The translations under genes were made by a program, and so were the position numbers. DNA of 64,000 bases from Squalus acanthias (lineage: Eukaryota). Positions within the stretch are counted from its first letter, which is position 1. Every line of letters begins with the position of its first letter. Under the pieces are notes generated by a model. It was not told the origin of the DNA. It saw nothing but the letters and a program-made list of their open reading frames with translations, and did no database searches. The stretch lies in the NCBI GenBank assembly GCA_030390025.1, contig CM059431.1, forward strand, positions 109,494,001 through 109,558,000. The letters run 5' to 3'. Shown here piece by piece: positions 5,356 through 51,155 of this stretch.

Positions 5356-7112
5356 AGCAGGAATTTTGCGGGGGTGGGGGTGCGGGGGGGGGGGAGTCAG
5401 TGGGCGCGATCGGAGGTGGGTCGGGTGGAAAAGTGTTTGTTTTTCCCCCAGCGAGTCGGGACCCCACTGTCAACCCGCTACCAGTGCCTGTCCACGATGT
5501 CGGGCCTGTCAGCGCTGAGCAGACCCGACACGCAGCGGCGGGGGACCTAATTCAGGTAATTAGTGGCTTGTTTAGAGCCACTTAAGAATAATTTCAGCTC
5601 ACTTTTGCATTTGACAGCTCGTCCATGGGGTCTACGCTGGTCGTGGACCACGTCTGTCAAGCTGAGGCAGGAGTTCAGTGGCCATTGAATCAGCTGTTGA
5701 GTTGACAGCTTCAAATGTAAAGTAAAAGCTCCCACCTTACAGAGATATCTTGCCTCAGTCACAAGTATTTCTCACTGCATTTCCACAACAGATTTACCAT
5801 GCTGCAAGTCTTTACACAAGTCTCCATCCAGTCTGACCTCATTACCTCTCTCACCATTGACAGATCGCTTCTGTCATCTCTACTTCACCTGCCATCTATT
5901 CCATCAACATGGGTGCCCTTTATACTCTCTCACCTTGGTCCTCAGAATCCCACCATGATCAGCCCCAACACCAGCAGCACCAACAACACCACCAACCTTC
6001 TCCGCAATCAACTGATGCTGCACAGGACAGAGGGCATCAGCACCTGACCACAGTGCTGCCAGAGAGTCCAGGGATGGCCTCACCATGGCCAGATTTACTT
6101 CACTTGACGTTGTGATGCCACATCACATGCCAGGTTGGCACCACCCCACACCAACACCATAAAGCATGCCCAAGCCATTCCATTCACACTCACCACCATT
6201 GTGGGGGGTACCGTTATGTCTCATCATTCACTGCAACTCACTAAGCCACTTCCAAAGGTGCACACAAATCTGTCTAAGAATGCAAAGTGTTGAAAATAAA
6301 GGTTTCAATGTTTGACAGCACATTCACATAAACTTTACATGAACATCGGCTAAAACACCCAAGTGCCTACCCTTGTGTATTGTTAGTTGGTATGATTGGA
6401 CTAGGATGAAGGTGAGTGTGAGGGGTGGCTAGTGAGATGGAGATGTGATAATATAGATAGAGAGGGATTGGTGGAGGTCCAAGTTAAGTTGGTGTGAGTA
6501 AGAATGTGTAGGAGTAGGGTAGGGAAGGCAGAGTGATGGGGATGTGATGAGAGGCACAGCAGGATGAGGTTGAGTGTGGCTTTGTACTAACGTTTTGTGA
6601 TCTACTGAGATCATTGTAACATTTGCGCCACTGCACCCAGGTCCTCCTGACCACATCCCTGCTTGTGCCCTCCTCTGCAATGTGCAATCAGGCTGCGTTG
6701 ATGTCCTCGGGAGGTCTCTTCCGCCCATGGGAAGGGAAGAGGACCTCCCTGCGTGCTGTGACTCCCTCTATATGCTTATGGAGGGAGTCATGGGAGAGCC
6801 TGGGGGCACACCCTGCACCTTTGTGCAGTGATTGTCAGTGTTTGCAGCACTTCAATGCTGTAGAACACTGACAGCACAAACATCAAAATAAATTTGGCCA
6901 TGGTCCCTTTAAGGAAACCAGCTGATGATGCGTCATCAAATGACATCACCACACCCGCTTCCTCTAATTGGCCGGGCAACGCGCTGGGCAGGCTTAACAA
7001 GCCCAATCAAGGGAAATTCATTTCAGAGGCCAGGAAGGAGACAGCCTCAGGGTCGGGACCCGCCACCGACATCGCCCGCCACGGGCCCGCCGAGGTGAGC
7101 AAAATCGCAGCC
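5356..7112. mobile_element. Harbinger deletion derivative, family Y (about 1.75 kb), with a Myb/SANT remnant on the minus strand
   Basis: Imperfect TIRs and an AAT TSD. Minus-strand HIAEEGTSRDVVRRTWVQWRKCYNDLSRS resembles the Harbinger Myb/SANT protein. Homologous to 30632-32362. Confidence 0.82.
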
Positions 7113-7548: not shown

Positions 7549-9570
7549 AGAGAGGCCAGAACTAGGGGCCATAAATATAAGATAGTCACTAATAAATCCA
7601 ACAGGGAATTCAGAAGAAACTTCTTTACCCAGAGAGTGGTGAGAATGTGGAACTCACTACCACAGGGAGTGGTTGAGGCGACTAGCATAGATGCATTTAA
7701 GGGGAAGCTAGATAAACATATGAAGGTGTAAAGTTTCGCAATTATCGCGATTCGAAATAACAAGATAGAAGCAGATTCGTTTGATCAGTTTATTTAAACG
7801 AAATGCTGTCATGATATAAAGGACACAGAAGCCTGTAAAATGGCTGCCGCGCATCGTGGCAGAAGCTTCCAGAAGTACAGTGGGCAGACAAGATGGCATT
7901 CGAATAAACATTTTCAATATAAGACGGGATCATACTCGATAAGCACTGATAAAGACAGGATGCAACCTGTTTGCATTTGTGACAATAGCAAAAGATATAA
8001 GTGCTGGAATCGTTTTCCATGCACAAGTAAGGACCATTGTACTGGGCAATCGAAGGCCCATCCAGACACATCAATACACAAATACCCCCACGGCTCTACA
8101 ATGAGAGAACCATTCTCGGGTGATTAAAGAAGTATTCGGGGGCCCCCAAAACCAGTCAGGGAGACGATTCATACGATCCTGGCTGGGCCAACAATGGGGA
8201 AAACATTAACGGGTAGTTGGCCAGTCTCAGGTGCTACCGAAACCCGTTAAAGACAAGAATCACCCCATGCTGGGAGTTTTGAGCGCCAATATTTCACAAA
8301 GGACAAACATTAAGATTTGGGCGGGAGATAAGGGAACACAGCACTATAACTATAGTGAACAAATGTTCATCGCTCTCTTATCTCTGCGGACTCTTGACTC
8401 GGGCTGAACTTTTATTCTCCTATTCTGATCCTCGGGTATCGCTCTGCTGGACGAGCAGCCTTCTGTGTTTTCTCTGGACTCTGTTGACTCTGGACGTTAG
8501 CCGCACTGGACGGTTATTCGAATGTTGGGTGGGGCTCAATTGGAACGAGTCGCCTCGACGAAGGCCGGTGACCGGGTGCACCATCTCGAGAGTCGGTAAA
8601 CGGTGTTTGGACCCGAAGGCCCAACAAGACAAGACGAAATGACAAGAGAAGAAGAAGAATCCATGTGCCGCCGCGGTCAGCAAACCCCGACCGCGCCCGA
8701 AAATATACGACCCATTTCTTGAACTCTACAGGTTACTGCACGAACCAATCAAAGACTCTTCTTTGAATTCTACCGACAACTGGTGTCTGTCCAGGAAGAC
8801 TTTTCTTTGAGTTCTACAGCCGGGCCCGAGTTCTGTCGAGTTCTTCATGACAACGGGGAGCCCAGCCTGCTTGCCGCAGCAGCGAAGATAAACAAGTGGG
8901 GTACAGAGACCCCTCCAAACACGTGACAGTCAGGCGCTGCAGCGAAACGAGCCGAGTGCCTCACTTTAAAATTCTCCAAAGTATCACGAGTGGTGAGTAT
9001 GTTTCCCGATCCTACGAATCTAGATGTAGTGTAGGTATTGATAGGGGAGGGTGGTTTTATTAAGGATAAAGTATAATGTGTTCCCCTTTTTACGATGTGC
9101 CGTGCGTTCTTCATTACCATAGACCAAGCTTTATGAATGTATGTATACTTGTACTCTCGTTAATTTGCGCCTATGACATGTACTTCATGATTTTGGACGC
9201 TATGCAATAAAAATTTCCATTTCGTACTATTCAACCGGGTCTATTTGAGTTTTTCTCCGCATTACTGCTCTCGCACCTAAGTCCAGTGTTAGAACCGTAA
9301 GGGCGAGTGGGTCGAACCACTCACAGGTGCTTATTGCAACAAGGCTGGCCGGAGACCAGAGCAAGCAATAGTATTAGGCAACGAAGGCCTAACCCCGCAC
9401 TAGCACCATCTGTGATATAAGCACGTCAAAAGGAGAAAGGAATAGAAGGATATGTTGATGAGGTTAGATGAAGTAGGGTGGGAGGAGGCTCGTGTGAAAC
9501 ACAAGCACTGGCATAGACCTGTTGGGCTGAATGTCCCGTTTCTGTGCTGTAAGTACTGTGTAATACTTTG
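7549..9570 (+). mobile_element. CR1 3' end split by solo-LTR A
   Basis: TRGHKYKI...FFTQRVV...LDKHMK continues as EKGIEGY after 9433. Confidence 0.85.
7727..9429 (+). mobile_element. Long solo LTR-like element, copy A (about 1.7 kb), inserted in a CR1 3' end
   Basis: Starts TGTAAAG and ends ...GTCA(A). AAGG is duplicated at 7723-7726 and 9430-9433 (or a 5-bp GAAGG/AAAGG with one mismatch). CR1 sequence is contiguous across it. Homologous to 10820-12173. Orientation is inferred from the order TATA, splice donor, AATAAA. Confidence 0.85.
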
Positions 9571-9574
9571 TAAA

Positions 9575-10150
9575 GTAGGTTTTTCCCTCGGGTTGGTTTT
9601 CTCACCACCTGCCGCAAGCCCAGTCTGGCAGCTGTGTCATTCAGGTTTCAGCCAGCCCAGTCAGTAGTGGTGCTACCCAGAGTACATTCTGTGCCCTTGC
9701 TACCCTCAGTGCTTCTTCCAAGTGGTGTTCAACATGGAGGAGTACTGATTCATCAGCTGAGAGAGGGTGGTAGGTGGTAATCAGCAGGTGGTTTCCTTGC
9801 CCATGTTTGAGCTGATGCCATGAGACTTCATAAAGTCTGGAGTCAATGTTGAAGACTCCCAGGGCCACTCCATCTTGACTGCATACCACTGTGCCGCCAC
9901 CTCTGGTGGGTCTGTCCTGTCGGTGGGACAGGATATACCCAGGGATGGTGATGGAGGAAAGTGGGACGTTGGCTGATAGGTGCAATTCTGTGAGTATGAC
10001 TATGTCAGGCTATTGCTTGACTAGTCTGTGGGACAGCTCTCCCAACTTTGGCTCAAGTCCCCAGATGTTAGTGAGGAGGACTTTGCAGGGTCGACTGGGC
10101 TGAGTGTGCATTTGTCGTATCCGAATCCGATGCCTAGGTCGAAGTCGAGT
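9575..10150 (-). mobile_element. Second CR1-clade LINE family, endonuclease-region fragment
   Basis: IPGYILSHRQDRPTRGGGTVV is an APE-type endonuclease motif. Confidence 0.75.
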
Positions 10151-10407
10151 GGTCCGTCTGCAGAACATCTACAGGCAATTTTACGTTTACACTTGTTTAG
10201 GTTGGATTGCCGGATAGCAGTGGTATTCTGTAATCTATAGCTCAGTCATATTTACTAACCTAACACTGGATCCCATCTCCTGATGGCAGAATGGTAGATG
10301 CATCTCTTGCAGCGTTACAATTCTGCTGTTGTGATAAGGACACTAGATGTAACAATTTAAGTATGACGAGCCAGCACACGGACACTGTTCCTGTGATCCA
10401 AATTAAT

Positions 10408-12292
10408 CAGGTGTGCAGTTCTGGTCGCCACACTATAGGAAGGATGTGATTGCATTGGAGAGGATGCAGAGGAGATTCGCCAGGATGTTACCTGGGCTGG
10501 AGCGCTTCAGCTATGAAGGCTGGGGTTGTTTTCCTTAGACCAGAGAAGGCTGAGGGGGGACCTGATTGAGATGTACAAAATTATGAGGGGCATATATAGG
10601 GTAGATAGAAAGGAACTTTTCCCCTTAGTAGAGGGGTCAATAACCAGGGGGCATAGTTTCAAGGTAAGGGGCAGGAGGTTTAGAGGGGATTTGAGGAAAA
10701 ACTTGTTCACCCAGAGGGTGGTTGGAATCTGGAACTCACTGCCTGAAAGGGTGATAGAGACAGAAACCCTCACAACATTCAAGAAGCATTTAGATGAGCA
10801 CTTGAAACGCCATAGCATATGTAGAATTCGCAATATATCGCGATTTTATAAATAAGGAGAAAACACATAGTTTCGTTCAAACAGCTTTATTTCAGCAGAA
10901 TGCTGTCAGGTTTTCAAAGTGGACACAGAAGTCTGTAAAATGGCCGCCAAGCATCGTGGCAGAAGCTTCCAGAATACAGTGGGCAGACAAGATGGCGTTC
11001 GAATAAACATTTCAGTATCAGATTGGTTAATACGCAGCAAACACTGATAAAGACAGGATGCAACCTGTCTGCATTTGACACAATAGCAAAGATATAAGTG
11101 CTGGAATAATTTTCCATGCACAAGTAAGGACCATTGTAATGGGCAATCGAAGGCCCATCCAGACACAGCAATACACATATCAGTATTCGAGAAGGCCCCA
11201 AACCCAGTCAGGGAGACTCCTAGCCAGCTCGACAATGGGGAAAACATTAACGGCTACTTGGCCAGTTTAAGGTGCTACCGAAACCCATTAAAGGAAAGAA
11301 TCGCCCCATGCTGGGAGTTTTGTGCACCAGCATTTCACAAAGGACAAACATTAAGATTTGAGCGGGAGATAAGGGAACACAGCACTATAACTATAGTGAA
11401 CAAATGTCCATCAAGGGCTTATTCTCTGGATTCGACTCATATCTCTGCTGACTCTTGACTCGGGCTGGACTCTTGACTGATTGATCTCGCTGATGACTGC
11501 TGAACTTTTATTCTCCTATTCTGATCCTCGGGTATCGCTCTGCTGGACGAGCAGCCTTCTGTTTTTCTCTGGACTCTGTTGACTACGAGACGAGACGAGA
11601 AGAAGAAGAGGAGAAGAATCCACGTACCGCCACGGTCAGTAAACCCCGACCGCGCCCGAAAATACAAGAAAGAACTGCAGCGAAACGAGCCGAGTGCCTT
11701 ACTTTAAAATTCTCCGAAGTATCACGAGTGGTGAGCATGTTTCCTCGATCCTACAAATCTAGATTAGTGTAGGTATTAATAGGGGAGGGTGGTTTTATTA
11801 AGGATAAATATAATGTGTTCCCCTTTTTACAATGTGCCGTGCGTTCCTCGTTTCCCTAAACCTAGTTTTATAAATGTATGTAAGATTGTACTGTCATTAA
11901 TCTGTGCTTATGACATGTATTTCGTAATTCTGAATAATATGCAATAAAGATTTTCCATTTCGTACCATTCAACCGGGTCTACCTGAGTTTTCTCTCCATT
12001 ACTGCTCTCGCATCTAAGTCCAGTGTCAGAACCGTAAGGGCGAGTGGGTCGAACCACTCACAGGTGTCTAGTGCTCCCAGACTGGCTGGAGACCAGAACA
12101 GGCAACAAGGCCTAATCTCGCACTAGCACCCAGGCTGAGCACAGAGCCACACACAGGTCCAGAAACCCTTACACATACAAGGCTACGGACCAAGTGCTGG
12201 AAAATGGGATTAGAATAGACAGGGCTTGATGGCCGGCGTGGACACGATGGGCCAAAAGGCCTCTTTCTGCGCTGTATAACTCTATGACTCTA
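10408..12292 (+). mobile_element. CR1 3' end split by solo-LTR B
   Basis: RLRGDLIE...LDEHLKRHSI continues as QGYG after 12177. Confidence 0.88.
10820..12173 (+). mobile_element. Long solo LTR-like element, copy B (1354 bp), inserted in a CR1 3' end
   Basis: TGTAG...TTACA termini with a perfect CATA TSD (10816-10819, 12174-12177). CR1 resumes with CAAGGCTACGG. Homologous to copy A. Confidence 0.88.
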
Positions 12293-12617
12293 GGTACCAA
12301 TGGAAAAGCACTTTACAACAATTAATTTGCTCACCAACAACTTAAGATGTTACTTTTAGTATTTGAAAAACCTGTTCTTTTCAACAGTACAATGCGAAGC
12401 CTACTGAATCGCTCTAATTGTGATTATATTAAGCATTGGTTTCCAGTTTGATAGGTCACTTGGCTGTACAGATGGATAAGCTGCTTTCTGTCTTACAACT
12501 ATTTTTGTTTTATCCAGAACTCTCTTCAAATGGAGCGACAAATGAGGATCAGGGGCTGCTCTCAGGGGGTTGTGCTAGAGACTACCGGAACCCTCACTAC
12601 ACAAACTAAATTGTCAA

Positions 12618-14650
12618 ATCATAGAACCATAGACTCATAGAATGGTTACAGCACGGAAGGAGGCCATTCAGCCCGTCGAGCACATGCTGGCTCTCTGCAA
12701 GAGCACTTCAGCTAGTCCCACTCCCCCGCCCTTTCCCCGTTGCCCTGCAAATTTTTTTCTTTCAAATACTTATCCAACTCCCTTTTCAAAGCCGTGACTG
12801 AGTCTGACTCCACCATCCTTTCAGGCAGTGCATTCCAGATCCTAACCACTCGCTGCGTAAAAAAGGTTTTCCTTATGTCGCCTTTTGTTCTTTTGTCAAT
12901 CACCTTGAATCTGTGTCCTCTGGTTCTCGACCCTTCTGCCAATGGGAACAGTTTCTCTCTATCTACTCTGTCTAGACCCCTCATGATTTTGAATACCTCT
13001 ATCAAATCTCCTCTCAATCTTCTCTGCTCTAAGGAGAACAACCTCAGCTTCTCTAGTCTATCCACGTAACTGAAGTCCCTCATCCCTGGAATCATTCATG
13101 TAAATCTTTACTGCACCCTCTCTAGGGCCTTCACGTCCTTCCTAAAATGTGGTGCCCAGAATTAGACACAATACTCCAGTTGAGGCCAAACCAGTGTTAT
13201 ATACAGGTTCATCATAATTTCCATGCTTTTGTACTCTAAGGGGGTGATTTTGCAAATGGGGGCACGTTAGAGGCGGGACTGCTGCTTGTCGGGTTTTAGT
13301 CCCGCCTCCATCGACTTGTGGCCGACCCACGCTATTTTCCCTTGATTGACCTTGTTAAGCCCGCCCAGCGGGCTTAGCAGGCCAATTAAGGGGAAGCCGG
13401 TTACAGAAAACATCAACGTATGACGTTTCATCTGTCAAAAATTTTGTCATCGTTTGACAGCTCTGTGAAGCTGTCAAACACTGACATTCTCTCTTGTTTG
13501 ATGAGTCCTTGTATTCAAGGCTCATCAAACCTCTTTTGTGAGCAGAAATTAGATGGTTGTTGCATCGGAGAATGCAGCAGCCATCTGTCATCTCTGCCGG
13601 TGAGATGCGAGAGTCTCCGCATCCCCAACTGTTGAAGCCTGCAGGAAGAAACAAAGAAAAGTAAACATTTTCTATCACTTTCCACTTACCTCACATACTT
13701 CACCTCTCCACACTTGCACCCATCACTCACCTCCACAGCGCACTTTTGCACCCCTCCGACCCCCGCAGACCCATTGCTCGCCTCGGTGACCCTGGCGGGG
13801 TTTCCCGACGTCGGGAAGCCCGCACCTCTGGTGGAAAAATGGGGATAATCCTCTTAACTGCCTGTTAACTACCTGTTAACAGGCAGTTAAGTGGCTGTAA
13901 TCCCCTTCCCGCCTCCAGGAGACGTGACCCGGCGCAGGTCGGCTACCCGCCTCCTGGGAAGATTGCACGGAGGTGGGTTGGGGGCGGGATGGGTACCCGC
14001 CCCCAGATTCTGCCATTTTCCCGGCAGTCCCACCTCCATACCCGCCTCCCCAGGGCTGGCAAAATCCAGCCCTTTGCCTCTATTCATGAAGCCCAGGATC
14101 CCATAAGCTTTTTTAACTGCTTTCTCAACCTACCCTGCAACGATTTGTGCAGATATACCCCTCGGGCTCTCTGTTCATGCAGCCCTTTGGGATTGTACCC
14201 TTTAGTTATGTTTCCTCTCCTCATTCTTTCTATCAAAATGTATCACTTCACACTTTTCTGTGTTAAATTTCGTCTGCCACGTGTCTGTCCATTCCACCAG
14301 CCTGTCTATGTCCTCTTGAAGTCTATCATTATCCTCTTCACTGTTCACTACACTTCCAAGTTTTGTGTCATCTGTAAATTTTGAAATTGTGCCCTGTATG
14401 CCCACATTAAAGTCATTAATATATATCAAGAAAAGCAGTGGTCCTAGAACCGACCCCTGGGGAACACCGCTGTATAACTTCCTCCAGTCCGAAAAACAAA
14501 TTTTCACCACTAATCTCTGTTTCCTGTCACTTAGCCAATTTCGTATCCATGCTGCCACTGTCCATTTCATTCCATGGGCTTCAACTTTGCTGGCAAGCCT
14601 ATTATCTGGCACTTTGTCGAGCGCCTTTTGGAAATCCATGTACACCACGT
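12618..14650 (-). mobile_element. CR1 LINE fragment split by the Harbinger element at 13240-14072
   Basis: ORFs 12712-13095 and 14202-14648 are consecutive CR1 RT segments. Confidence 0.9.
13240..14072 (-). mobile_element. Harbinger-like family X (about 830 bp) inserted in CR1
   Basis: TIRs GGGGGTGATTTTGC / GCAAAATCCAGCCC. Interrupts a minus-strand CR1. The 3-bp TSD is degenerate. Confidence 0.85.
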
Positions 14651-17367: not shown

Positions 17368-17392
17368 TGTGAAGGAATAAGCCATATAACCT
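17368..17392 (+). repeat. 5' LTR stub (25 bp) of the foamy provirus
   Basis: TGTGAAGGAATAAGCCATATAACCT is identical to 19646-19670 and is joined directly to RNase H coding sequence. Confidence 0.93.
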
Positions 17393-19260
17393 TTTTATCC
17401 AGAAGAATTACTGTCCATACCCCTTGGCCATAAGACAGCGCAATATGCTGAAGCCGCAGCACTACGGTATGCTTTAGAAAAGGCAGACCCTATTAAACCC
17501 ACATTAATCTGTACGGATAGTGACGATTGTAAAAGAGGATATAACAAAGATCTAGTTTTCTGGGAACAAACAAACTTTACCAATCATAAGGGTAAACCCA
17601 TAAAACATAAGTCATTGTGGGAAAACATTCTCCGTTCGAGAATGGAGAAACAGAATTGTCAAGTGATTCATGTAAACAGGCATACCACTGGGACAGTACA
17701 CTCAAAAGGAAACAGTCTTGCAGACGAACAAGCAAAACGTTCAGTCTGCATGACACCCCTCGAGAGGGGCCTGCCAATATTAGTGTTATCACTAGGGCAG
17801 AATGGGCAGCTAATCAGGATGAGGAACTGATTCAGCTATTAGACCCAACAAAAGAGAATCCACCAGGATATCCATCAAAGTACTTTTACTCGGAAACCCC
17901 TACTGGTATTGTGCTAGTTAAGTTGCCCAAGGGAAAGCGAGAAGTACCCCCAAGACACAAACGAGAACAGTTTGTAAAAGAAGCTCATGAGGGCATAGGT
18001 CAAGCACATTGTGGTGCCAGAACAACATTCTGCAAATTGACTCCCTTATATTGGTGGCTAGGCATGCTTAAGGCCTGTAAAACATGCGTGGCAAATTGTG
18101 AGCCATGCAATGTAACCAATAAGTCAACTCTAATTAAGCCACCACCATTGGCTCCTGTGAAAGCTGATGAGCCAATGGGAAAATTCTTTATTGACTTTAT
18201 TGGACCACTTCCCCCGTCATTGGGATACAGACACATTCCCGTTTGTGTAGATGGATGCACTTCCTTCTGCTGGCTGGTCCCCACAAAAACTGTTTCGGAA
18301 AACGCACTCGCCAATGCTATTACTGACATAATTACTGTAGCTGGTGCACCCAAAATCTTACACTCCGATCAAGGCGGAGCCTTTGTCTCCAAGGTCTTCA
18401 AAGACTACTGCGAACAAAGGGGGATTGGGTTAGAGCATAATACACCACGTCATCCGCAATCAGCGGGGCTGGTGGAATGTAAAAACAAGGAAGTAAAAAA
18501 GCTATTGGTCAAACTGTTTAGAATCAGGGGAAATAAGTGGACCAGTGTCATTCCGGAGGTGCAGCTATCACTTAATAATGTGCCCGCATCTGCATCAGGG
18601 ACAGTGTCCCCTAAAACTCCATATTATCTGATGTATGGGGTTGAGATGCATACGCATACCCATGGTTCTTTTATTGCCTCTACACTCTCTGATTCCTTGA
18701 CCCGACAGCGACAGTTAGATTTAAAAAAAGAAGTAACAGAGGAGATACATCAAATTGATCAGAGGATAAGGGAGACAAATAGGCAGAAAAAATTGACAAA
18801 CAAAGCATGGCAACCCCTAGCAGGAGAATGGGTACAGGAAAAGAAGTTCGAGCAAAAACCTGGTTTAAGATCTAAGTGGAAAAAACCTGTTCAAATACGT
18901 TCTGTTATTAACGAGAGAACTGTTAAAATACATATTAATCAGCCGAATGGCAAGCATATTCTTAAAACTGTCTCCATAGACAATCTCAAAAGATGTCCTG
19001 CGGGATACCGAAATGGAGGAACAATACAAGGTGCAGTCGTACACTGTCTTTCCAGACCCAGCTTGGAGCACGACACAGGAAATGGATGCGATCGAACTAC
19101 TGACGACGGTCAGCCAGACGGTGTCACCGACTCCTCCACACGATGCTTGGCAACGCCTCAGGAATGGGATTTGCAAAAAGCCACAACCAAAACAAGTAAA
19201 GATCAACGAGTTACTTCAACGAAGGAGGAAAACTTTGCGGATGGAGAAGGAATCAACTGA
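17393..19260 (+). pseudogene. pol: Foamy-virus pol, 5'-truncated: RNase H plus integrase, one frameshift near 17745-17765
   Basis: The frame from 17393 reads LSIPLGHKTAQYAEAAAL...ICTDSD...KGKPIKHKSLW...GNSLADEQAK (PFV as recalled: WSIPLGNHTAQMAEIAAV...ITDSF...KKPLKHISKW...GNALADKLAT). ORF 17617-19260 has HHCC (AHEGIGQAH, CEPC), KFFIDFIGPLPPSLGY, LHSDQGGAF, HPQSAGLVECKN and C-terminal KTVSIDNLK, all matching the PFV integrase layout. Confidence 0.95.
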
Positions 19261-19360
19261 GCTCCTGGCAAGGCCTTTACGAAAACAAAAATCTGTCCTC
19301 ACGCTGGATCAATGGAACAGCGTGTCAAGCTTCAGCCAATTCCAAATGACGTCTCCTTGA
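19013..19360 (+). pseudogene. env: Foamy-virus env N-terminus (leader peptide), truncated
   Basis: The ATG lies inside the Pol 'NG' codons (AAT GGA) just after VSIDNLK, the same position as the PFV env start. The ORF contains LTLDQW, resembling PFV MTLQQW. The rest of env is missing. Confidence 0.7.
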
Positions 19361-19635
19361 CTCGTATGAATAACTCACCTCTACGGAACGTACATCTGCC
19401 AATTGGACATTCTAAGTACATGTTGTTTCGCTAATTGCATGACAATGTACCTCTCATCCTTTTAATTTGTGTTCAATTTAAAATAGGGCAAAATATTGCC
19501 CTGGGATGACTCAAAGGAATTTTCATGTAGCACATGATTAGGCTCTTGTGAATCTCGTGAAATTAATGTGTTATTGCAACCTTATTAGTAACATTGAACA
19601 AACTCTGCCCTGATGTTTGAGCTCATTTTTTGGTC

Positions 19636-19645
19636 AAGAGGTAGG
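19636..19645 (+). other. Polypurine tract
   Basis: AAGAGGTAGG lies immediately 5' of the TG that starts the 3' LTR. Confidence 0.8.
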
Positions 19646-20755
19646 TGTGAAGGAATAAGCCATATAACCTATTCAGAAAAATACACCATTCTATGAAAGA
19701 ATTCTAGCCTTATTAAAACATGACAAACTGGGTTTGGAAATCTAGAAACCTAACTATGAAAAAGCTGTGAAAGCATTCTGGCTATAGAGATAAGATAGTT
19801 GTTGACACTGAATCAATAACCTTATTGAAACAGAAGGTTAAAGGCTCCAGTAGTCTGAACCTTTTGGAATCAAACAATGGTTCACCCTGTACAAGGTGTT
19901 ATAATTTACACTTCGTAAAGAAGCACATAAAAGTAAGAAACATCTGCCTTCGTAAAAATTACATCAAGTAAAACGCACCTGCCATTACACCGTTTTTTTA
20001 TGGTAAACTTAGAACACCTAGAGAAGAGACATAATTCGGTAATGCTACCAGCTGAGGTGACCGTAAGAATTGCAGGGGTCAGCAGAAAAATGACTAGAGA
20101 TAATTAGCTTACATCAGCAGAAAACCTTAAAGGAAATACCACTGGAAAAGGGTATAAATATTGAACTCTCAAATGGGATAACAAACTCGCTTTAAAGGGG
20201 CAAAGCGATTCTCTTTGTACCTCGGAGATCAAAGGTGTTTGATTTTGATGGATATCCTGTAGAAAACTAAGAACTGTAAAACTGTAGCGAAGTTAAGATT
20301 TGAGAGTAAGGTTCTCTGATAATAGAATTGTAAGCTTTCTCTTTTTGGAACTGTTAATGTTGCGATTGAATCACCAACTGTAAATTACATGTCGGTTCTT
20401 TAATAAATCTATATATTTTTAGAATTGTCTCACATAAGACTTCTGTATCAAACTCGCGAACTCAATCTCTGTACATTCTTTGGTGAGGAGTTGCAGAATT
20501 CTGGGGGAGTTTTCCGGACCCTCATAATATCCGGAACGTTACAGTCTAGCTAAACTTAATAAAAAGTGCTATCTGGAGGACGATAACATTTTCAGGTTGT
20601 TCCTTTCCTTTAGGGAGAGATAGTCCGGACCTTTAGACCCAATTAAGCGTCTTTAGGATTCGGCTACCTCAAACTTTAGTTGAAAGTGAACGTCTGAGGA
20701 ATATGCCTGACCTGGGATAGCCCTAAAGGGGCTAGGACTAGTAAATATCCCTTCA
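19646..20755 (+). repeat. 3' LTR (1110 bp) of the foamy provirus
   Basis: TG...CA ends with a TGAAGG/CCTTCA inverted repeat. TATAAA at 20153-20158, candidate splice donor GA|GTAAG at about 20304-20310, AATAAA at 20402-20407. Confidence 0.92.
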
Positions 20756-22505: not shown

Positions 22506-23524
22506 TCTACACCCGTCATATCTCAGGTGTGAGCTTAAATTGGCTATATCCCTGCATCAGATTCAGGAAGGGAGTAATTGCAAATCCTGTACCATTTGGC
22601 AGTTCCAGAATCAGCCTTACTGGCACACCAGTAACCACACCCAGTCTGGACAGACTTCACTTTCATGCTCCTTACGAGTGAACATAGCCTTCAAAAAACT
22701 AAATATTAGATTTATACTTAAGGCATGTAATATCATTCCAGATCATCCTGGACTTTTAATCACTGCTCCTACCTTTATATTTCAGAGCGTTCTCTCCTGG
22801 CTGGAATCATGATGCTCAGGATCTGTTTGTCACCTTTCTGCCCTTACCATTGGTCCAGTGCAAAACCTCGGCCATGTTTGAGAGAAGAACCCCAGAGTGG
22901 CAACAACTCCAGAAGGAAAAGCTACATGAAAGATCTTTTGTACATTTTTTAAAAATACATTATCAGCTAAATTGGAAAGGAATCCTGAATCATCTTTATT
23001 ATCTGAGCTTTCATACTGAATCGAGTGATTTAAAAATAGTTTAATCATGCTACTGTTAAGCTGGAACTGGGCACATCTTCTAGACATGTAAAATGACAAC
23101 ATTGTTTTTTAGTTGTATTGCTTGGATTAATATTTAATTCAAATAATCAGTCACAATGAACTTTGAGACTGTTGAAGGCAAATTCCAGTTGCTCCCAGCC
23201 CCAAAGCAAAAGACACCCAATGAAGAAGCTGTAAAAGCCCATTTCCTCTTGACTATGAATCACAGAAATGCCAACTAATAGGAACGAGGCTCAGGTGTTT
23301 AACTAATGTATCTGAATAGCACACGTGAAGGTTTAACACAGACGATACTGTATGACTCTATAAATGTTTAGGGAAAAAGTGAGAATTGCACAAGTTCCAC
23401 TGGCTGTCACCTGGCCCAGTTGAAACCATGACACAACAAATTATAGCAGATAGTAAAATCTGGAACCAGCCAGTTTTCCATTTGCCACTGGGAAGATTGA
23501 ATCCAAACAACTATTTAAATAGCT

Positions 23525-25422
23525 TACGAAAGCAAGCTGGCGGAAAATATAAAAACTAACTCCAAAAGCTTTTATAAGTATATCAAGAGGAAAAGACTGG
23601 TGAAAACCAAAGTTGGTCCATTGCAGTCAGATACGGGGGAATATATAACGGGAAATAAGGTAATGGCAGACCAACTAAATGCATACTTTGGGTCAGTCTT
23701 TACGAAGGAAGACACAAAAAACCTCCCTGGGATATCGGGAAAAATAGGGACATTGGCAAAGGAGGAACTGACGCAAATCAATATCTCTAAGGATATGGTG
23801 TTAAGGAAGCTAAAGGGATTGAAGGCGGACAAATCCCCAGGGCCTGATAACATGCATCCTAGGGTACTGAAGGAGGTGGCCCTAGAGATAGCGGATGCAC
23901 TAAGTATGATTTTTCAGAATTCATTAGACTCGGGAACAGTGCCCATGGATTGGAGGGTAGCTAACGTTACCCCACTATTCAAAAAGGGGGGTAGGGAAAA
24001 AGCAGGTAATTACAGACCTGTAAGCCTTACATCAGTTGTGAGCAAAATGCTGGAGTCCATCATTAAGGATGAAATAGCGGAGCACTTAGCAAATGGGGAC
24101 AGGATAGGACAGAGTCAACATGGATTTACAAAGCGTAAATCGTGCTTGACTAATCTATTGGAATTTTTTGAGGGAGTAACTGGTAAAATAGATGGGGGAG
24201 AGCCAGTAGATGTGGTGTACCTGGACTTCCAAAAGGCCTTCGACAAGGTCCCACATAAAAGATTAGCATGGAAAATTGAAGCTCATGGGATAAAGGGGAA
24301 AGTATTGACGTGGATAGAGAACTGGCTGTCAGATAGAAAACAGAGAGTTGGAATAAACGGCTCATTTTCTGAATGGCAGGCAGTAACAAGTGGGGTACCA
24401 CAGGGATCTGTCCTGGGTCCCCAGCTGTTCACAATTTACATTAATGACCTGGATCAGGGAGTCGGATGCAGCATTTCCAAATTTGCAGACGACACTAAAC
24501 TAGGAGGGGGGGTGGGCTCAGAGGAGGAGACCAGGAAGCTCCAGAGCGATTTGGACAGACTGGGTGATTGGGCGGATAAATGGCAGATGCACTATAATGT
24601 GGACAAGTGCGAAGTTATCCACCTTGGGTGCAGGAACGGGAGGGCAAATTATTATTTAAATGGCAATAAATTGGGAGAGGGGGAAGTACAGAGAGACCTG
24701 GGTGTTCTTGTACACCAGTCACTGAAGGCGAGCATGCAGGTGCAACAGGCGGTCAAGAAGGCAAACGGTATGCTGGCCTTCATAGCAAAAGGGTTGGAAT
24801 ACAGGAACAGGGATACCTTGCTGCAGCTGTACAGGGCACTGGTGAGACCACACCTCGAGTACTGTGTACAGTTTTGGTCGCCTCATCTGAGGAAAGATGT
24901 TCTTGCCATGGAGGGGGTGCAGCGGCGATTCACCAGGCTGATACCAGGAATGGCGGGATTGACCTATGAGGAGAGACTATGTAGTTTAGGGATGTACACA
25001 CTGGAGTTTAGAAGATTGAGAGGGGACCTCATAGAAGTGTATAAAATTCTGACAGGTCTAGACAGACTAGATGCAGAAGGAATGTTTCCCTTGGCGGGTG
25101 AGAACAGAACTAGAGGACATAATTTAAGGATAAGGGCTAAACCATTTAGGACAGAAATGAGGGGGAATTTCTTCACTCAGAGGGTGGTGAACCTGTGGAA
25201 CTCATTGCCACAGAGGGCAGTGTACGCCAGCTCATTAAATATATTTAAGAGGGAATTAGATATATTTCTACAGGCAAAAGGGGTTAAGGGTTACGGAGAG
25301 AAGGCGGGGACGGGATACTGAATTGGAGGATCAGCCATGATCTCATTAAATGGCGGAGCAGGCTCGAAGGGCCGGATGGCCTACTCCTGCTCCTATCTTC
25401 TATGTATCTATGTATCTATGTA
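23525..25422 (+). mobile_element. CR1 LINE, 5'-truncated, with an intact 573-aa RT frame (23600-25321)
   Basis: KSPGPD, NYRPVSLTS, YLDFQKAFD, GVPQGSVLGP, KFADD motifs and a (TATGTATC)n tail. Confidence 0.95.
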
Positions 25423-29367: not shown

Positions 29368-30495
29368 ATAAGAACATAAGAACATAAGAATTAGGAGCAG
29401 GAGTAGGCCATACGGCCCCGCGAGCCTGCTCCGCCATTCGATAAGATCATGGCTGATCATCAACCTCAACTCCACTTTCCCGCACGATTCCCATATCCAT
29501 TGATTCCTCCAGAGTCCAAAAATCTATCTATCTCAGCCTTGAATATACTCAATGGGCTTGATTCTCTCAGCCCCGAGGAGGCGGGTATGGAGGCAGGACT
29601 GCCGGGAAAGTTGTAGAATTTGGGGGCGGGTGGCAATCCGATCCCCAACCCGCCTCCGTGCCCTCTTGCCAGGAAGCGGGAAGCCATCCCACCCCGGGTC
29701 CCGTCTCCTTGGAGGCGGGAAGGGATCAAAGCCTATTAACAGGTAGTTAAGAGGCAGAAAATAGGATTATCCCCATTTTTCGTTCCGAAGTGCGAGCTTG
29801 CCGACCTGGGGGAACCCCGCCAGGGTGTAGGAGCTGAGTAGGAGGTCTGCGGGGGTCGGAGGGGTCTGAAAGTGCAATGTAGAGGTGAGTGATGTGTGCA
29901 AGTGTGGAGAGGTAAGTATGTGAGGTGAGTGTAAAGTGTTAGAAAATGTTAACTTACCTTAGTTTCTGCCTACAGCCTTCAGGCGCTGTGGAGCTGGAGT
30001 CCCCAACATCTCCATTGTAGAGATCACAGACTGGCTGTTGCATCCTCCGATCCAACAGCCAGCTGATTTCTACAAAGTAGAAAGGTTTGATGAGTCCTGA
30101 ACACAAGCAATCATCAAACTACACAGAATGTCACTGTCTGACAGCTTCACAGAGCTGTCAAATGCTGACATTTCTTCTTTCAAAAATTCCTGACAGATGA
30201 CACGTCATACGTTGACGTGCTCTGTCACTGACTTCCCCCTAATTGGCCTACTGAGCCCACTGGGCGGGCTTAACAAGGTCAATCAGGGGAAGATCCCGCT
30301 GGTTGGCCAGAGGCTCATGGAGGCGGTACTGAGACCCGGCAAGCAGCAGCCCCGCCTCCAGCACATCTCCATTCACAAAATCCAGCCCAATGACTCAGCA
30401 TCCACAGCCCTTTGGGGTACAGAATTCCAAAGAGTCACCACTCTCTGAGTGAAGAAATTCCTCCTCATCTGTCTTAAAAGGTCGACCCCGTATGT
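29368..30495 (-). mobile_element. CR1 3' end split by a Harbinger element
   Basis: (AACATAAG)n tail; sequence is contiguous across the AAT TSD. Confidence 0.8.
29554..30388 (+). mobile_element. Harbinger-like family X (835 bp) inserted in a CR1 tail
   Basis: TIRs GGGCTTGATTCT / AAAATCCAGCCC with a perfect AAT 3-bp TSD. Confidence 0.9.
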
Positions 30496-30631: not shown

Positions 30632-32362
30632 GGGGGGAATTTTTTGGGGGGTCAGCAGGCACGTTTGGTGGTGAGTCGGGTGGGAATTTTTTTTTGTCAG
30701 CGGGTCAGGGAAACCGCTGTTAACTCGCCGCCAAGCGCCTTTCCCAGATGTTGGGTCTGTCAGCGCTGAACAGACCTGACACGCAGCGACGGGGGAGGTA
30801 ATTCAGGTCATTATGACCTTGTTAACAGCCCATTAAGAAGCATTTTGAGCTCACCTTTACATTTTACAAGGGCAACCATGGAGTCCACGCTGCTCGGGGA
30901 TCACGTCAGGTAAACAGGTCAGTAGTTGTATGATCATGGAATTATCTCATTACTTGATAGCTGCAAATGTGCTATAAAAGATCCCATCTCACAGCTGTTT
31001 ACTTCCCAAGTTCAGAAGCTGTTGCTTACTGCATTTGGAAGACAGATTGAGCTTTATGCAGGTTGCAAGTGTTTGGAGTAAACTCTCTATCCAGTGTCAC
31101 CTCATTGGAAAAAACCTCTCTCACCATTGACAGATCGCTTCTGTCATCTCAAGTTCACCTGCCATCTATTACATCAGCATCAGTGCCCTTGAAACTATCT
31201 CACCTTGGTCCTCACGATCAGCCCCAACACCAGTAACACCAGGCACACCAGCAGCACCAACAACGACACCAACCTTCTCTGCAATCACCTGATGCTGCAT
31301 AGGACACAGGGCACAGCACCCGCCCACATGCTGCCCGGGACGCCAGAGATGGCCTCACCATGGCCAGATTTACTTCACTTGATGATGTACAGTTTGGCAC
31401 CACCCCACACCAACACCATAACACATCCCTACAATGCCAATGCCATTCCTTTCACACTCACAACCATTGCAGGGGTTACTGTTATGTCTCACCATTCACT
31501 GCAACTCACTAAGCCACTTCCAAAGGTGCACACAGATCTGTCCAAGAATGCAAAGTGTTGAAAATAAAGGTTTCAATGTTTGACACCACATTAACAGAAA
31601 GTTTACATGAACATTGGCTAAAACACCCAAGTGCCTACCCTTGTGTGTTGTTAGTTGGTATGATTTGACTAGGATGAGGGGGAGTGTGAGGGGTGGCTAG
31701 TGAGATGGGGAAGTGATAATGTAGATAGAGGGATGGGTGGAGGTGCAAGGTAAGTTGGTGTGAGTAAGGATGTGCGGGAATAGGGTAGGGAAGGCAGAGT
31801 GATGGGGATGTGGTGAGTGGCATAGCAGGATGAGGTTGGGTGTGGCTTGGCAGTAACATTTCGTGATCTACTGAGATCATTGAAAGGTTTGCGCCACTGC
31901 AGCCTGGTCCTCCTGATGACATCCCTGCTTGTGTCCTCCTGTGCAATGTGCAACCAGGCTGCGTTGGTCTCCTGGGGAGGTCACTTCCACCCATTGGAAG
32001 GGAAGAGGACCTCCCTGCCTGCTGTGACTTCCTCCATAAGCATATGGGGGGGAGCCATGGGAGAGCCTGGGTGCAGCCGTGCACCTTTGTGCAGTGCTTG
32101 TCAGTGTTTGCAGCACCTCAATGCTGTAGAACACTGACAGCACAACTGTCAAAATCAATTTGCGCATGGTCCCTTTAAGGAAACCGGCTGATGACGCGTT
32201 ATCCAATGATGTCATCAGACCCGCTTCCTTTAATTGGCTGGCAAACGTGCTGGGCGGGCTTAACAAGCTCATTCAGGGGGAAATCATTTTGGACAGTGGG
32301 CTGGAGCCAGCAGCGAGGCCGGGATCCGCCATGGACCCGCCAAGGGAGGGGAAATCGCGGCC
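30632..32362. mobile_element. Harbinger deletion derivative, family Y, second copy
   Basis: Colinear with 5356-7112. Minus-strand HIAQEDTSRDVIRRTRLQWRKPFNDLSRS. Confidence 0.82.
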
Positions 32363-35709: not shown

Positions 35710-36380
35710 AGGTCAATAAGGCCGTAACAAAAGCAAACCAAGCACTAAGGTTTATTTCTAGAGGGATAGGTTTGAAAAGTAGAGAAGTTATGGTAAACTT
35801 GTATCGAACTTTGGTTAGACCATACTTGGAGCACTGTGTGCAATTCTGGATGCCATATTATAAAAAGGATATAGAGGCACTGGAGAGGGCACACAAAAGA
35901 TTTACAAGGATGATACCAGAAATGCAAGGTTATATCTATCAGGAAAGGATGAACAGGCTGGGTCTCTTTTTTCTTGAAATGAGAAGGCTGAGGGGTGACC
36001 TAATAGAGGTCTTTAAAATTATGAAAGGTTTTGATAGAGTGGATATAGAGAGAGTGTTTCCACTTGTGCGGAAGAGCATAACTAGAGGCCATCAATATAA
36101 GATAGTCACCAAAAAAACAAATAGGGAATTCAGAAGAAACTTCTTTACCCAGAGAGTGGTGAGAATGTGGAACTCGCTACCACAGGGAGTGGTTGAAGCG
36201 AATAGCATAGATGCATTTAAGGGGAAGCTAGATAAGCACATGAGGGAAAAGGGAATAGAGTTAGATGAGGAAGCATGGGTGGAGGCTCGAGTGGAGCATA
36301 AACGCCGACATGAACTGGTTGGGCTGAATGGCCTGTTTCTGTGCTGGATATTCTATGTAATCCTATGTAATCCTATGTAA
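35710..36380 (+). mobile_element. CR1 3' fragment
   Basis: ORF 35634-36380 carries the CR1 C-terminus; (TAATCCTATG)n tail. Confidence 0.9.
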
Positions 36381-44148: not shown

Positions 44149-44151
44149 TTA

Positions 44152-44996
44152 GGGCTAGATTTTGCCAATGGGGGCGTGTTGGGGGCGGGACTGCTGGTTG
44201 TCGGGTTTCAGTCCCTCCCCCAATGACTTCTGGCCAACTCACTCTATTTTCCCTTGATTGACCTTGTTAAGCCCGTCCAGCGGGCTTAGCCGGCCAGTTA
44301 AGGGAAAGCCGGTGACAGAGGACGTCAGCGTATGACATTTCATCTGTCAAAAATTTTTGACAGATGAATTGTCAGCGTTTGACAGCTTAGAGAAGCTGTC
44401 AAACGCTGACAATCTCCGTTCTAAGATGAGGCCTTGCACAAAGACTCACCAAAACCTATTTACTCAGCAGAAATCAGATGGCTGCTGCATCTGAGAATGC
44501 AGCAGCCATTCTGTCATCTCTGCCATTGAGATGAGGCTCCTCCGGATCCCCAAGGGTTGAAGCCTGCAGGAAGAAACAAAGGTAAGTAAACTTTTTCTAA
44601 CACTTTACACTCACCTCTCATACTTACCTCTCCACACTTGCACCCATCACTCACCTCCACAATGGCCTTTTCGATCCCTCTCATCCCCACAGACCCACTG
44701 CTCGCCTCGCTGACCCTGGTGGGGTTTCCCAATGTCGGGAAGCCCGCACTTGGAGGGGTAAAATGGGGATAAGCCTCTTAACTGCCTGTTAACTACCTGT
44801 TAACAGGCAGTTAATTGGCTGTAATCCCCTTTCAGCCTCAAGGAGACGGGTCCCTGCGCGAGTCGGGAACCCACCTCCCGGGAAGATGGCACGGAGGCGG
44901 GTTGGGAGCGGGTTCGGTACCCGCTCCCAGTTTCTGCCATTTTCCCGGCAGTCCTGCCTCCAAACCCGCCTCCCCAGGGCTGGCAAAATTCCCCCC
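44152..44996 (-). mobile_element. Harbinger-like family X (845 bp)
   Basis: TIRs GGGCTAGATTTTGCCA / TGGCAAAATTCCCCCC with a perfect TTA TSD. Confidence 0.9.
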
Positions 44997-46152: not shown

Positions 46153-46886
46153 GGGCGCGATCTTGCCAGCCCTGGGGAGGCAGGTTTGGAGGCGGGACTG
46201 CCGGGAAAATGGCAGAATCTGGGGGCGGGTGCCCATCCCGCCCCCAACCCGCCTCCGTGCCATCTTCCCGGGAGGCGGGTAGCCGACCCGTGCCGGGTCC
46301 CGTCTCCTGGAGGCGGAAAGGGGATTACAGCCACTTAACTACCGCCAGGGTCACCGAGGCGAGCAGTGGGTCTGCGGGGGTCGGAGGGGTACAAAAGTGC
46401 ACTGTGAAGGTAAGTGATGGGTGCAAGTGTGGAGAGGCGAGTGTGTGAGGTAAGTGGAAAGTGTTAGAAAAAGTTTACTTACCTTTGTTTCTTCCTGCAT
46501 CTCGCATCTCCAAGGCAGAGATGACAGATGGCTGCTGCATTCTCCGATGCAACAACCATCTAATTTCTGCTAAAAAAAGAGGTTTGATGAGTCTTGAATT
46601 CAAGAACTCATCAAACTACAGAGAATGTCAGTGTTTGACAGCTTCACAGAGCTGTCAAATGATGACAATTCATCTGTCAAAAATTTTTTGACAGATGAAA
46701 TGTCATACGCTGACGTTCTCTGTAACCGGCTTCCCTTTAATTGGTCTGCTAAGCCCGCTGGGCGGGCTTAACAAGGTCATTCAAGGGAAAATAGCGTGGG
46801 TTGGCCAGAAGTCGATGGAGGCAGGACTAAAACCCGACAAGTGGGAGTCCCGCCTCCAAAAGCTCCCCATTGGCAAAATCCAGCCC
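46153..46886 (+). mobile_element. Harbinger-like family X, internally deleted
   Basis: TIRs GGGCGCGATCTTGCCA / TGGCAAAATCCAGCCC. Homologous to the other copies with about 100 bp missing. Confidence 0.85.
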
Positions 46887-48109
46887 TATGTTGTTTCTGA
46901 TTTTGATCAGTGTGGTATAACTATAAGTTTAAGAAAAAGAAGAAATAAAGCAACAATTACATTCTATTACACTGCCCGATTGCACTGGTTCATGGAAGAT
47001 TTTATGCTTGTGATTATGCAAATTAATTTTAGCTTAAACTTGATGTGTAATCTAACCAGCACAATTTCTCAGTTGCACCCAAAGTGGAAACTCTACCCCA
47101 AGTACTGTGGGCAGGGCAGAAACCAGATTGGAGGACTTGACTAAGGAGTGCCAAGACATATGCAGGGAAAAATTCGGTATCGACCATTTTGGGGCGCTAA
47201 CATCGCCTGGGCGCAAACTTTAGCGCAGCGCCGGCGACCACGAAATTCAGTTTTAGCGCCCCAAGAGGGAGGTGGAGCACTAAATCAAGACTAAAAACTG
47301 TCCAAGTCAAGATAAATTTTCATTTCATGTTAGCGTAGCTCTGAAGTTAAAAGTATTTAAGTAGAATTAATATAAATGTGAGGGATATTAGTCATTTTAG
47401 AATGTTGTTCTTACTAAACTGCAGTATGTATTAATTTTGGAGGAACTTCAGATTAACATGAATTCTAAACTGTGGCTTAGACACAAGTACAGCACATTAA
47501 TTTAAAAACTAAAATCTGTTTGGGAGAAAAATGAAGAAGTGTTGATCTCATTTGAAACACTGAACCTTAAAAGGGACTTCTTGAGAGTATGAGAAAAAAA
47601 AATAGGACCAACACATAGAATTGAATCATGGCATTTACAAAGTTTGTGTGTATTGATTGGCTTGAATAAGATTAATGTTTAAATTGATTTGGGTTAAAAA
47701 ATAAATAAATGAGCAGCAATGGCTATTCCAGGGACTGACCCTCCTGCGCTAAGCTCCATTAATATTTCCATTTTTTTTTTAATTTAATGCTACTGGGTTT
47801 GTCTATTTGAATTTGGTGGTTTGCAAAACAATCAGTTCACAGCACCACTCCATCATTAGTGGAATGAGGAGCAGTGCTGAGAATTGATCTGTCCAAGTGC
47901 TAGTGGCACTCGAATTCAACCAGGCAAACCCAACAACGTAAAAATAAAATTGGAATTTGAGTCATTCTAAAGATTCAGATGTGGGGAGGGGTGGCGGGGG
48001 GTGTGGGGAGGGGGGGGGGGGGGTGTGCAGTGGTTGCATCATACCTCCAAAATTACACTTGGAGAAACTGTTACTCCCCTAAGTCAGTATCAATGGAGAG
48101 AAGCTATTC

Positions 48110-51000: not shown

Positions 51001-51155
51001 GGGAGCCTTCCTCACGAGAAATGTACATCCAAAATTTGAGCGTGCGTTGCACGTGATTTGCAACTATTTAAAATAAGGATCAGAAAATGATGTGCCCTGC
51101 CGGCTGAGTTTCCGATTTGGGCTTTCGGAAGGTGAGGCTCCCCACCAGAAATGTG

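What the first reader, a model, noticed from the sequence alone, without database searches (positions are those of the whole stretch)
7727..12173. Two related long solo LTRs inserted about 12 nt apart at the homologous site of two different CR1 3' ends
Copy A splits LDKHMK|EKGIEGY and copy B splits LDEHLKRHSI|QGY. That is four codons apart in aligned CR1 C-termini of different subfamilies, and only 1.4 kb apart in the genome. Each has its own 4-bp TSD (AAGG, CATA), large private indels and a different 3' end, so they are independent insertions rather than one provirus or a duplication. This could reflect a retroelement targeting CR1 3' ends, or chance given how abundant CR1 tails are.
Basis: partly seen in the sequence, partly recalled or inferred. 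Interest (0 to 1): 0.7.

Follow-up and report, generated by a model that had tools for sequence, protein, structure and literature searches.

The report
Two solo LTRs nested in CR1s
Two leftover end-repeats of a very common retrovirus-like element landed separately near the same spot of two neighbouring LINE copies, most likely because both element and target are abundant, although true homing to that spot could not be excluded.

Summary
A (7727-9429) and B (10820-12173) are related 1.7 and 1.35 kb inserts (89% identical over aligned columns), each splitting the ORF2 end of a different CR1 subfamily, each with its own 4-bp duplication, 11 nt apart in ORF coordinates and 1.39 kb apart. Public contigs show B's empty site. 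The inserts lack terminal inverted repeats and recognisable coding frames and read as solo LTRs of a family with roughly 700-8,000 copies; no internal genes were found, so the superfamily is unknown. B's 'private' indels are shared by other copies. Targeting is untested: no genome is held and no other copy's flanks could be read. Under a uniform null the positional match has P about 0.0006, so chance needs the multiplicity of a genome-wide scan. Against homing: no shared target motif and no fixed distance to the CR1 tail (80 vs 61 nt). Both sites weakly fit ordinary 4-bp integrase preferences. Best reading: independent insertions into an abundant target with weak bias (0.57); real hot zone 0.25; dedicated homing 0.12. 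The scan holds no look-alike sequence; it noted a comparable ERV hot spot in a satellite of this genome.

The parts
7552..7726 (+). Host CR1 A, 5'-truncated, ORF2 codons about 528-586; ends with first copy of the 4-bp duplication (7723-7726)
   Evidence: tblastn; translation; 92% to an uninterrupted relative at 36077-36246
7727..9429 (+). Insert A, 1703 bp solo-LTR-like element; TG start, diverged right end (CAA). Plus-strand TATAA 8345, splice-donor-like GGTGAG 8992, AATAAA 9206; orientation inferred, not shown
9430..9575 (+). Second copy of duplication (9430-9433), rest of host CR1 A ORF2 and 3' tail; conserved tail motif at 9510
9576..10410 (.). Spacer, single copy in the window; holds a 122-codon minus-strand frame (9641-10009) that looks like a LINE endonuclease fragment (recalled resemblance; no Pfam hit)
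10411..10819 (+). Host CR1 B, 5'-truncated, ORF2 codons about 450-589, different subfamily; first copy of the 4-bp duplication at 10816-10819
10820..12173 (+). Insert B, 1354 bp solo-LTR-like element, TG...CA. Plus-strand TATAA 11386, GGTGAG 11730, AATAAA 11943; both ends at similar high depth in public contigs
12174..12292 (+). Second copy of duplication (12174-12177), rest of host CR1 B ORF2 and 3' tail; conserved tail motif at 12235

Best explanation
A and B are solo LTRs of two subfamilies of one high-copy LTR retroelement family. Each came from its own integrase-catalysed insertion (4-bp staggered cut) into an older, 5'-truncated CR1, and each later lost its interior by LTR-LTR recombination. 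They sit at similar CR1 positions because truncated CR1 copies pile up at their 3' ends and are everywhere, helped at most by the weak base preference common to 4-bp integrases. No homing to CR1 is needed. Shown: boundaries, duplications, different hosts, high copy number, CR1 density. Inferred: LTR identity, solo formation, absence of homing.
For: Own duplications and in-frame hosts of 62% identity. Empty site in 3 of 4 runs. No terminal inverted or direct repeats; 0 of 8 insert frames reach a Pfam cut-off. Median insert depth is 13-28% of the host CR1 subfamily in the two best runs, roughly 700-8,000 copies on my assumptions (the tool warns depth is no copy number). CR1 ORF2 covers 18% of the window with 14 copies at codon 586. 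The hosts are only 317 and 524 bp; given these hosts a match within 11 nt has P = 0.042. An unrelated MITE-like family splits CR1 ORF2 at 2 of its 6 loci here, near codons 425 and 572. The two targets share no motif and lie 80 and 61 nt from the tail motif. Both fit the human ERV1 flank rule (T at -6/-7, A at +6/+7; PMC2836564 passages), P = 0.047, tested post hoc.
Against: Uniform null: P = 0.00057 that two random inserts fall within 11 nt of homologous CR1 ORF2 positions, 0.0049 given the first. With 1,000-3,000 copies in an assumed 3-4.5 Gb genome, only 0.001-0.007 such pairs are expected within 3.1 kb for this family (0.01-0.14 within one window). Chance therefore needs many families, other host repeats, regional clustering and a wide scan; I could not measure these. 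Both inserts also have the same orientation relative to CR1. The full PFV consensus fits only 7 of 10 positions at each site (P = 0.13) and B's central step is the disfavoured RY type.
Confidence: 0.57

Rival explanations
1. Real but ordinary hot zone: the integrase's sequence, bendability or nucleosome preference meets a conserved feature of the CR1 ORF2 end, giving a 5-20-fold local enrichment while most copies lie elsewhere.
For: Such hot spots are common in nested human elements (82% of clustered insertion types non-uniform, MaLR included; PMC2836564 passages) and HIV has one near the Alu 3' end (about 1 in 175 sites; PMC10547254 section 7). Flanks fit the PFV KWK/MWM pattern at 10 of 12 positions, P = 0.025, post hoc subset. 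Low uniform-null probability.
Against: Published hot spots of this type are single positions; here the sites differ by 11 nt in hosts only 62% alike. n = 2.
Confidence: 0.25
2. Dedicated homing: the family's integrase is tethered to something bound at CR1 3' ends, so most copies sit within tens of bases of the ORF2 stop in any CR1 subfamily.
For: 2 of 2 copies in the window are there, same orientation; the likelihood ratio over the uniform null is several hundred.
Against: No fixed register to the ORF (11 nt) or the tail (19 nt) and no shared motif. No such vertebrate LTR family among the listings. None of the 15 of 134 joints shown links the insert to another CR1 position; this is weak, because shifts of a few bases would be scored as hidden small indels. 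Homing would not explain the 1.4-kb proximity.
Confidence: 0.12
3. Co-mobilisation: an LTR sitting just inside a CR1 tail is copied along by CR1 reverse transcriptase, so LTR-in-CR1-end composites multiply without any targeting.
For: Both hosts are short 5'-truncated copies with the insert within 150 bp of the tail; B's structure is shared by other copies.
Against: Two separate founder insertions are still needed. Contigs not carrying the majority letter at host-B position 10479 sum to about 2,300-2,700 in depth against 30,000-880,000 for most insert bins, so a long B composite can be only a small share of the family; contigs drop rare variants, so this is a soft bound.
Confidence: 0.04
4. One provirus, a local duplication or an assembly artefact.
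For: Same orientation and short spacing; no listed contig bridges the junctions.
Against: Different duplications, hosts continuous across each insert, hosts 62% alike, inserts 11% diverged, no LTR-element genes in the spacer.
Confidence: 0.02

Closest known systems
Insertion hot spots of LTR elements (MaLR, ERV1) within older human elements (Levy et al., PMC2836564; passages read)
   Same: LTR elements nested in LINEs; 4-bp duplication; both sites fit the ERV1 flank rule.
   Different: There the enrichment was measured on hundreds of thousands of events; here n = 2, different host subfamilies, no enrichment shown.
HIV-1 hot spot near the Alu 3' end (Miklik et al., PMC10547254; abstract and section 7 read)
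   Same: Weak integrase preference meeting an abundant repeat near its 3' end.
   Different: One exact position and motif; here an 11-nt offset and no common motif.
Foamy-like ERVs of fish and sharks (PMC5210030 section 3.4 and passages; PMC5512871 passages)
   Same: Long LTR and 4-nt duplication; a foamy-type remnant lies 5 kb away.
   Different: No link to pol, PBS or PPT; no similarity to the neighbouring foamy-type LTR (best E 0.15). Gypsy or epsilon/gamma-type origin is equally open.
Region-biased nesting of plant LTR retrotransposons (PMC6911290; abstract and outline only)
   Same: Non-random nesting near the 3' part of host elements.
   Different: Plants, LTR-into-LTR, broad regions.
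Tethered site-specific LTR elements such as yeast Ty3 or Ty5 (recalled, no call)
   Same: What the homing reading would resemble: position set by a bound protein, not by sequence.
   Different: No integrase is available here and no register to a fixed landmark was found.

Membership tests
Solo LTR of an LTR retroelement | TG...CA termini | tested here: inconclusive
   Met for B and for A's left end; A's right end reads CAA and is diverged from B's.
Solo LTR of an LTR retroelement | 4-6 bp target duplication | tested here: met
   AAGG and CATA; empty site skips 1354 + 4.
Solo LTR of an LTR retroelement | Dispersed repeat with both ends at similar abundance | tested here: met
   First and last bins 660k/540k, 645k/453k, 16k/15k in 3 of 4 runs; 96/29 in the fourth.
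Solo LTR of an LTR retroelement | No internal genes, no internal terminal repeats; promoter and poly(A) signals | tested here: met
   TATAA and AATAAA conserved in both copies, orientation unresolved.
Solo LTR of an LTR retroelement | Same sequence flanks an internal region (PBS, PPT, pol) in some copy | not testable with these tools
   No genome; no hits.
Foamy-like ERV | Long LTR and 4-nt duplication (shared, not exclusive) | tested here: met
   1.35-1.7 kb, 4 bp; features from PMC5210030.
Foamy-like ERV | GGGTG at the PPT-LTR border and foamy-type pol | not testable with these tools
   Only solo copies seen; no similarity to the local foamy-type LTR.
MITE / DNA transposon | Terminal inverted repeats | tested here: not met
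   None of 11 nt or more at the ends; only 4 bp in B.
Target-specific retroelement | Fixed position or shared motif at the target | tested here: not met
   Offsets 11 nt (ORF) and 19 nt (tail); no common motif; n = 2.
Target-specific retroelement | Most copies in the same target | not testable with these tools
   No flanks of other copies obtained.

The most novel reading that the evidence does not exclude
A high-copy LTR retroelement or endogenous retrovirus family of a cartilaginous fish that homes to the end of CR1 ORF2 across CR1 subfamilies, independent of exact sequence, using the genome's most abundant LINE as a safe landing site.
Probability: 0.12. Interest if true: 0.75.

Novelty: new member of a known kind. 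Interest (0 to 1): 0.3.

Why it matters
On the best reading it is ordinary nesting of repeats. If enrichment were real it would add a vertebrate LTR family with a hot zone in a LINE; if it were homing, it would be an integrase directed to another mobile element's 3' end, which bears on how integrases choose safe sites. One cheap genome-wide count decides between these.

Tried and rejected
Own genome: not held. Pattern scans for other copies: 0 hits in metagenome contigs (2 of 2 scans) and viral contigs (1 scan). Contig laying (4 of 20 listed runs) gave no flanks: loose ends at the insert's edges are absent from the 24 of 1743 rows shown, but so are loose ends at the CR1 3' end in three runs, so the absence says nothing. 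Junction-crossing reading frames as a route to other flanks: no candidates. The 95-codon Cys-rich frame in A (7840-8124): no Pfam, Atlas or protein hit, broken by three 1-bp gaps in B; treated as chance. Rfam: 0 matches. tRNAs: 0 in the window. Relation to the neighbouring foamy-type LTR: none. Earlier findings by sequence or place: 0. The 11- and 19-nt offsets are near one and two helical turns; rejected as evidence. One search used the wrong strand for the CR1 reference and was replaced. In one search one of 21 tblastn hits (23% identity, not CR1) was dropped and hits reaching codon 581 were extended to the stop.

Full report
Observation. The window reads as repeat-rich cartilaginous-fish DNA (my inference from the CR1 types; earlier notes on this genome also say shark). 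Two related inserts lie at 7727-9429 (A) and 10820-12173 (B) and have no other match in the window. Each splits a CR1 ORF2 end: the flanks of A translate ...LDKHMK and KEKGIEGY, those of B ...LDEHLKRHSI and IQGY, with AAGG and CATA duplicated. The sites are 11 nt apart in ORF coordinates, the spacer is 1390 bp, and the hosts are 62% identical over 165 shared bases, 317 and 524 bp long. A and B are 89.4% identical over 1255 aligned columns with ten gaps of 11-174 bp. Contigs of 3 of 4 public runs laid on B and its host show the empty site, a skip of 1358 bases, in 22, 32 and 9 contigs. So these are two independent insertions into older CR1 copies. CpG observed/expected is 0.92 and 0.73 in the inserts against 0.13 and 0.19 in the left host arms, in line with younger inserts.

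Two corrections. B's extra blocks are not private: a 128-base contig spanning both has no difference and depth 1546 where the lowest listed contigs have about 15-47, so A and B are best seen as two subfamilies. A's right end is diverged and ends CAA; a 4-bp duplication with one extra A or a 5-bp duplication with one mismatch both fit. B's right end is the abundant form in the runs.

What the inserts are. They have no terminal inverted repeats and no internal terminal direct repeats, no Rfam match, and none of 8 frames tested reaches a Pfam cut-off; two protein searches and one Atlas search found nothing. Both carry plus-strand TATAA, GGTGAG and AATAAA at matching places, the last about 225 bp from the right end; a minus-strand AATAAA about 70 bp from the other end leaves orientation open. 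With TG...CA ends and a 4-bp duplication this is the anatomy of a solo LTR. The superfamily is unknown: long LTRs and 4-nt duplications fit foamy-like ERVs but are not exclusive to them (PMC5210030, passages and section 3.4), and the inserts do not resemble the foamy-type LTR at 19646-20543. The family is abundant: median depth is 28% and 13% of the host CR1 subfamily in the two best runs, 5% and 0.2% in two other organisms. Dividing by a single-copy depth of 15-30 and an overlap factor of 2-10, both my assumptions, gives about 700-8,000 copies.

Is the shared position more than chance? CR1 ORF2 covers 18% of the window, with 14 copies at codon 586, the two hosts included (20 of 21 tblastn hits kept). 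Two random inserts fall within 11 nt of homologous positions with P = 0.00057; given the first, 0.0049; given these two short hosts, 0.042. For 1,000-3,000 copies in an assumed 3-4.5 Gb genome this yields 0.001-0.007 pairs within 3.1 kb and 0.01-0.14 within a window; for 10,000 copies 0.06-0.08 and 1-1.6. Taken for this family alone the coincidence is unlikely. It becomes expected only when one allows for other LTR families, other host repeats, regional clustering and a scan that covers at least 16 pieces of this genome; I could not measure these factors. Nesting in CR1 is common locally: a MITE-like family splits CR1 ORF2 at 2 of 6 loci, one about 45 nt from A's position.

Target sequence. 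The two sites share no motif, and their distances to the conserved CR1 tail motif are 80 and 61 nt, so there is no fixed register. The PFV consensus (PMC4422553, passages) fits 7 of 10 positions at each site (P = 0.13); its flanks alone fit 10 of 12 (P = 0.025, subset chosen afterwards). Both sites fit the human ERV1 flank rule (PMC2836564, passages) with P = 0.047. B's central step is of the disfavoured type. This is weak support for ordinary integrase preference and none for sequence-specific targeting.

The decisive test could not be run. No genome is held; pattern scans found no copies; the contig tables show 15 of 134 joints and 24 of 1743 loose ends, none giving another copy's flank, and they also omit the loose ends expected at the CR1 tail, so their silence is not evidence.

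Mechanism and odds. Most likely (0.57): two integrations of an abundant LTR family into the most abundant part of an abundant LINE, with weak base preference, then reduction to solo LTRs. A real hot zone of the kind known for human LTR elements and for HIV in Alu gets 0.25. Dedicated homing gets 0.12: the likelihood ratio favours it by several hundred, but I found no vertebrate precedent in the listings and there is no fixed register. Co-mobilisation by CR1 gets 0.04; a single provirus, duplication or artefact 0.02. These odds are judgements.

Earlier notes (unchecked AI notes, leads only): one reports a foamy-like ERV hot spot in a satellite of this genome and ascribes it to weak integrase preference (e1-7939369), which prompted my motif tests; none matches these inserts by sequence.

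Verdict. Real observation, ordinary parts, unproven twist. New member of a known kind; interest 0.3.

Noticed in passing
window 17368-20543 (+): Internally deleted foamy-type provirus remnant: about 24 bp of 5' LTR joined to an RNase H-like stretch, a 549-codon open frame with PFV-like integrase (E 2.5e-78), a short env-like start, and an 897-bp 3' LTR; flanks GCCT/GTCT. Unrelated in sequence to A and B.
   Followed up: partly
window 13239-14071, 29555-30388, 44150-44996, 46153-46890, 51141-52689, 1-560: About 850-bp MITE-like family rich in internal palindromes, 6 loci; two split CR1 ORF2 near codons 425 and 572.
   Followed up: partly
window 8339-8354 and 11380-11395: The putative TATA region of both inserts is a short perfect inverted repeat (7-bp arms, 2-bp loop), identical in A and B (alignment).
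   Followed up: no
window 6131-7065 and 31390-32331: A 940-bp repeat just upstream of host A has an 87% copy elsewhere in the window.
   Followed up: no
window 23519-25321 (+) and 60623-62251 (+): Long open LINE frames: 600-codon CR1 ORF2 and a 542-codon frame of a different, RTE-like LINE (label recalled).
   Followed up: no
run X18 laid on window 10380-12330: In this other organism the insert family is far rarer relative to the host CR1 (ratio 0.002 against 0.13-0.28) yet some pieces are about 98% alike, which hints at lineage-specific amplification; the run's kind is not on record.
   Followed up: no
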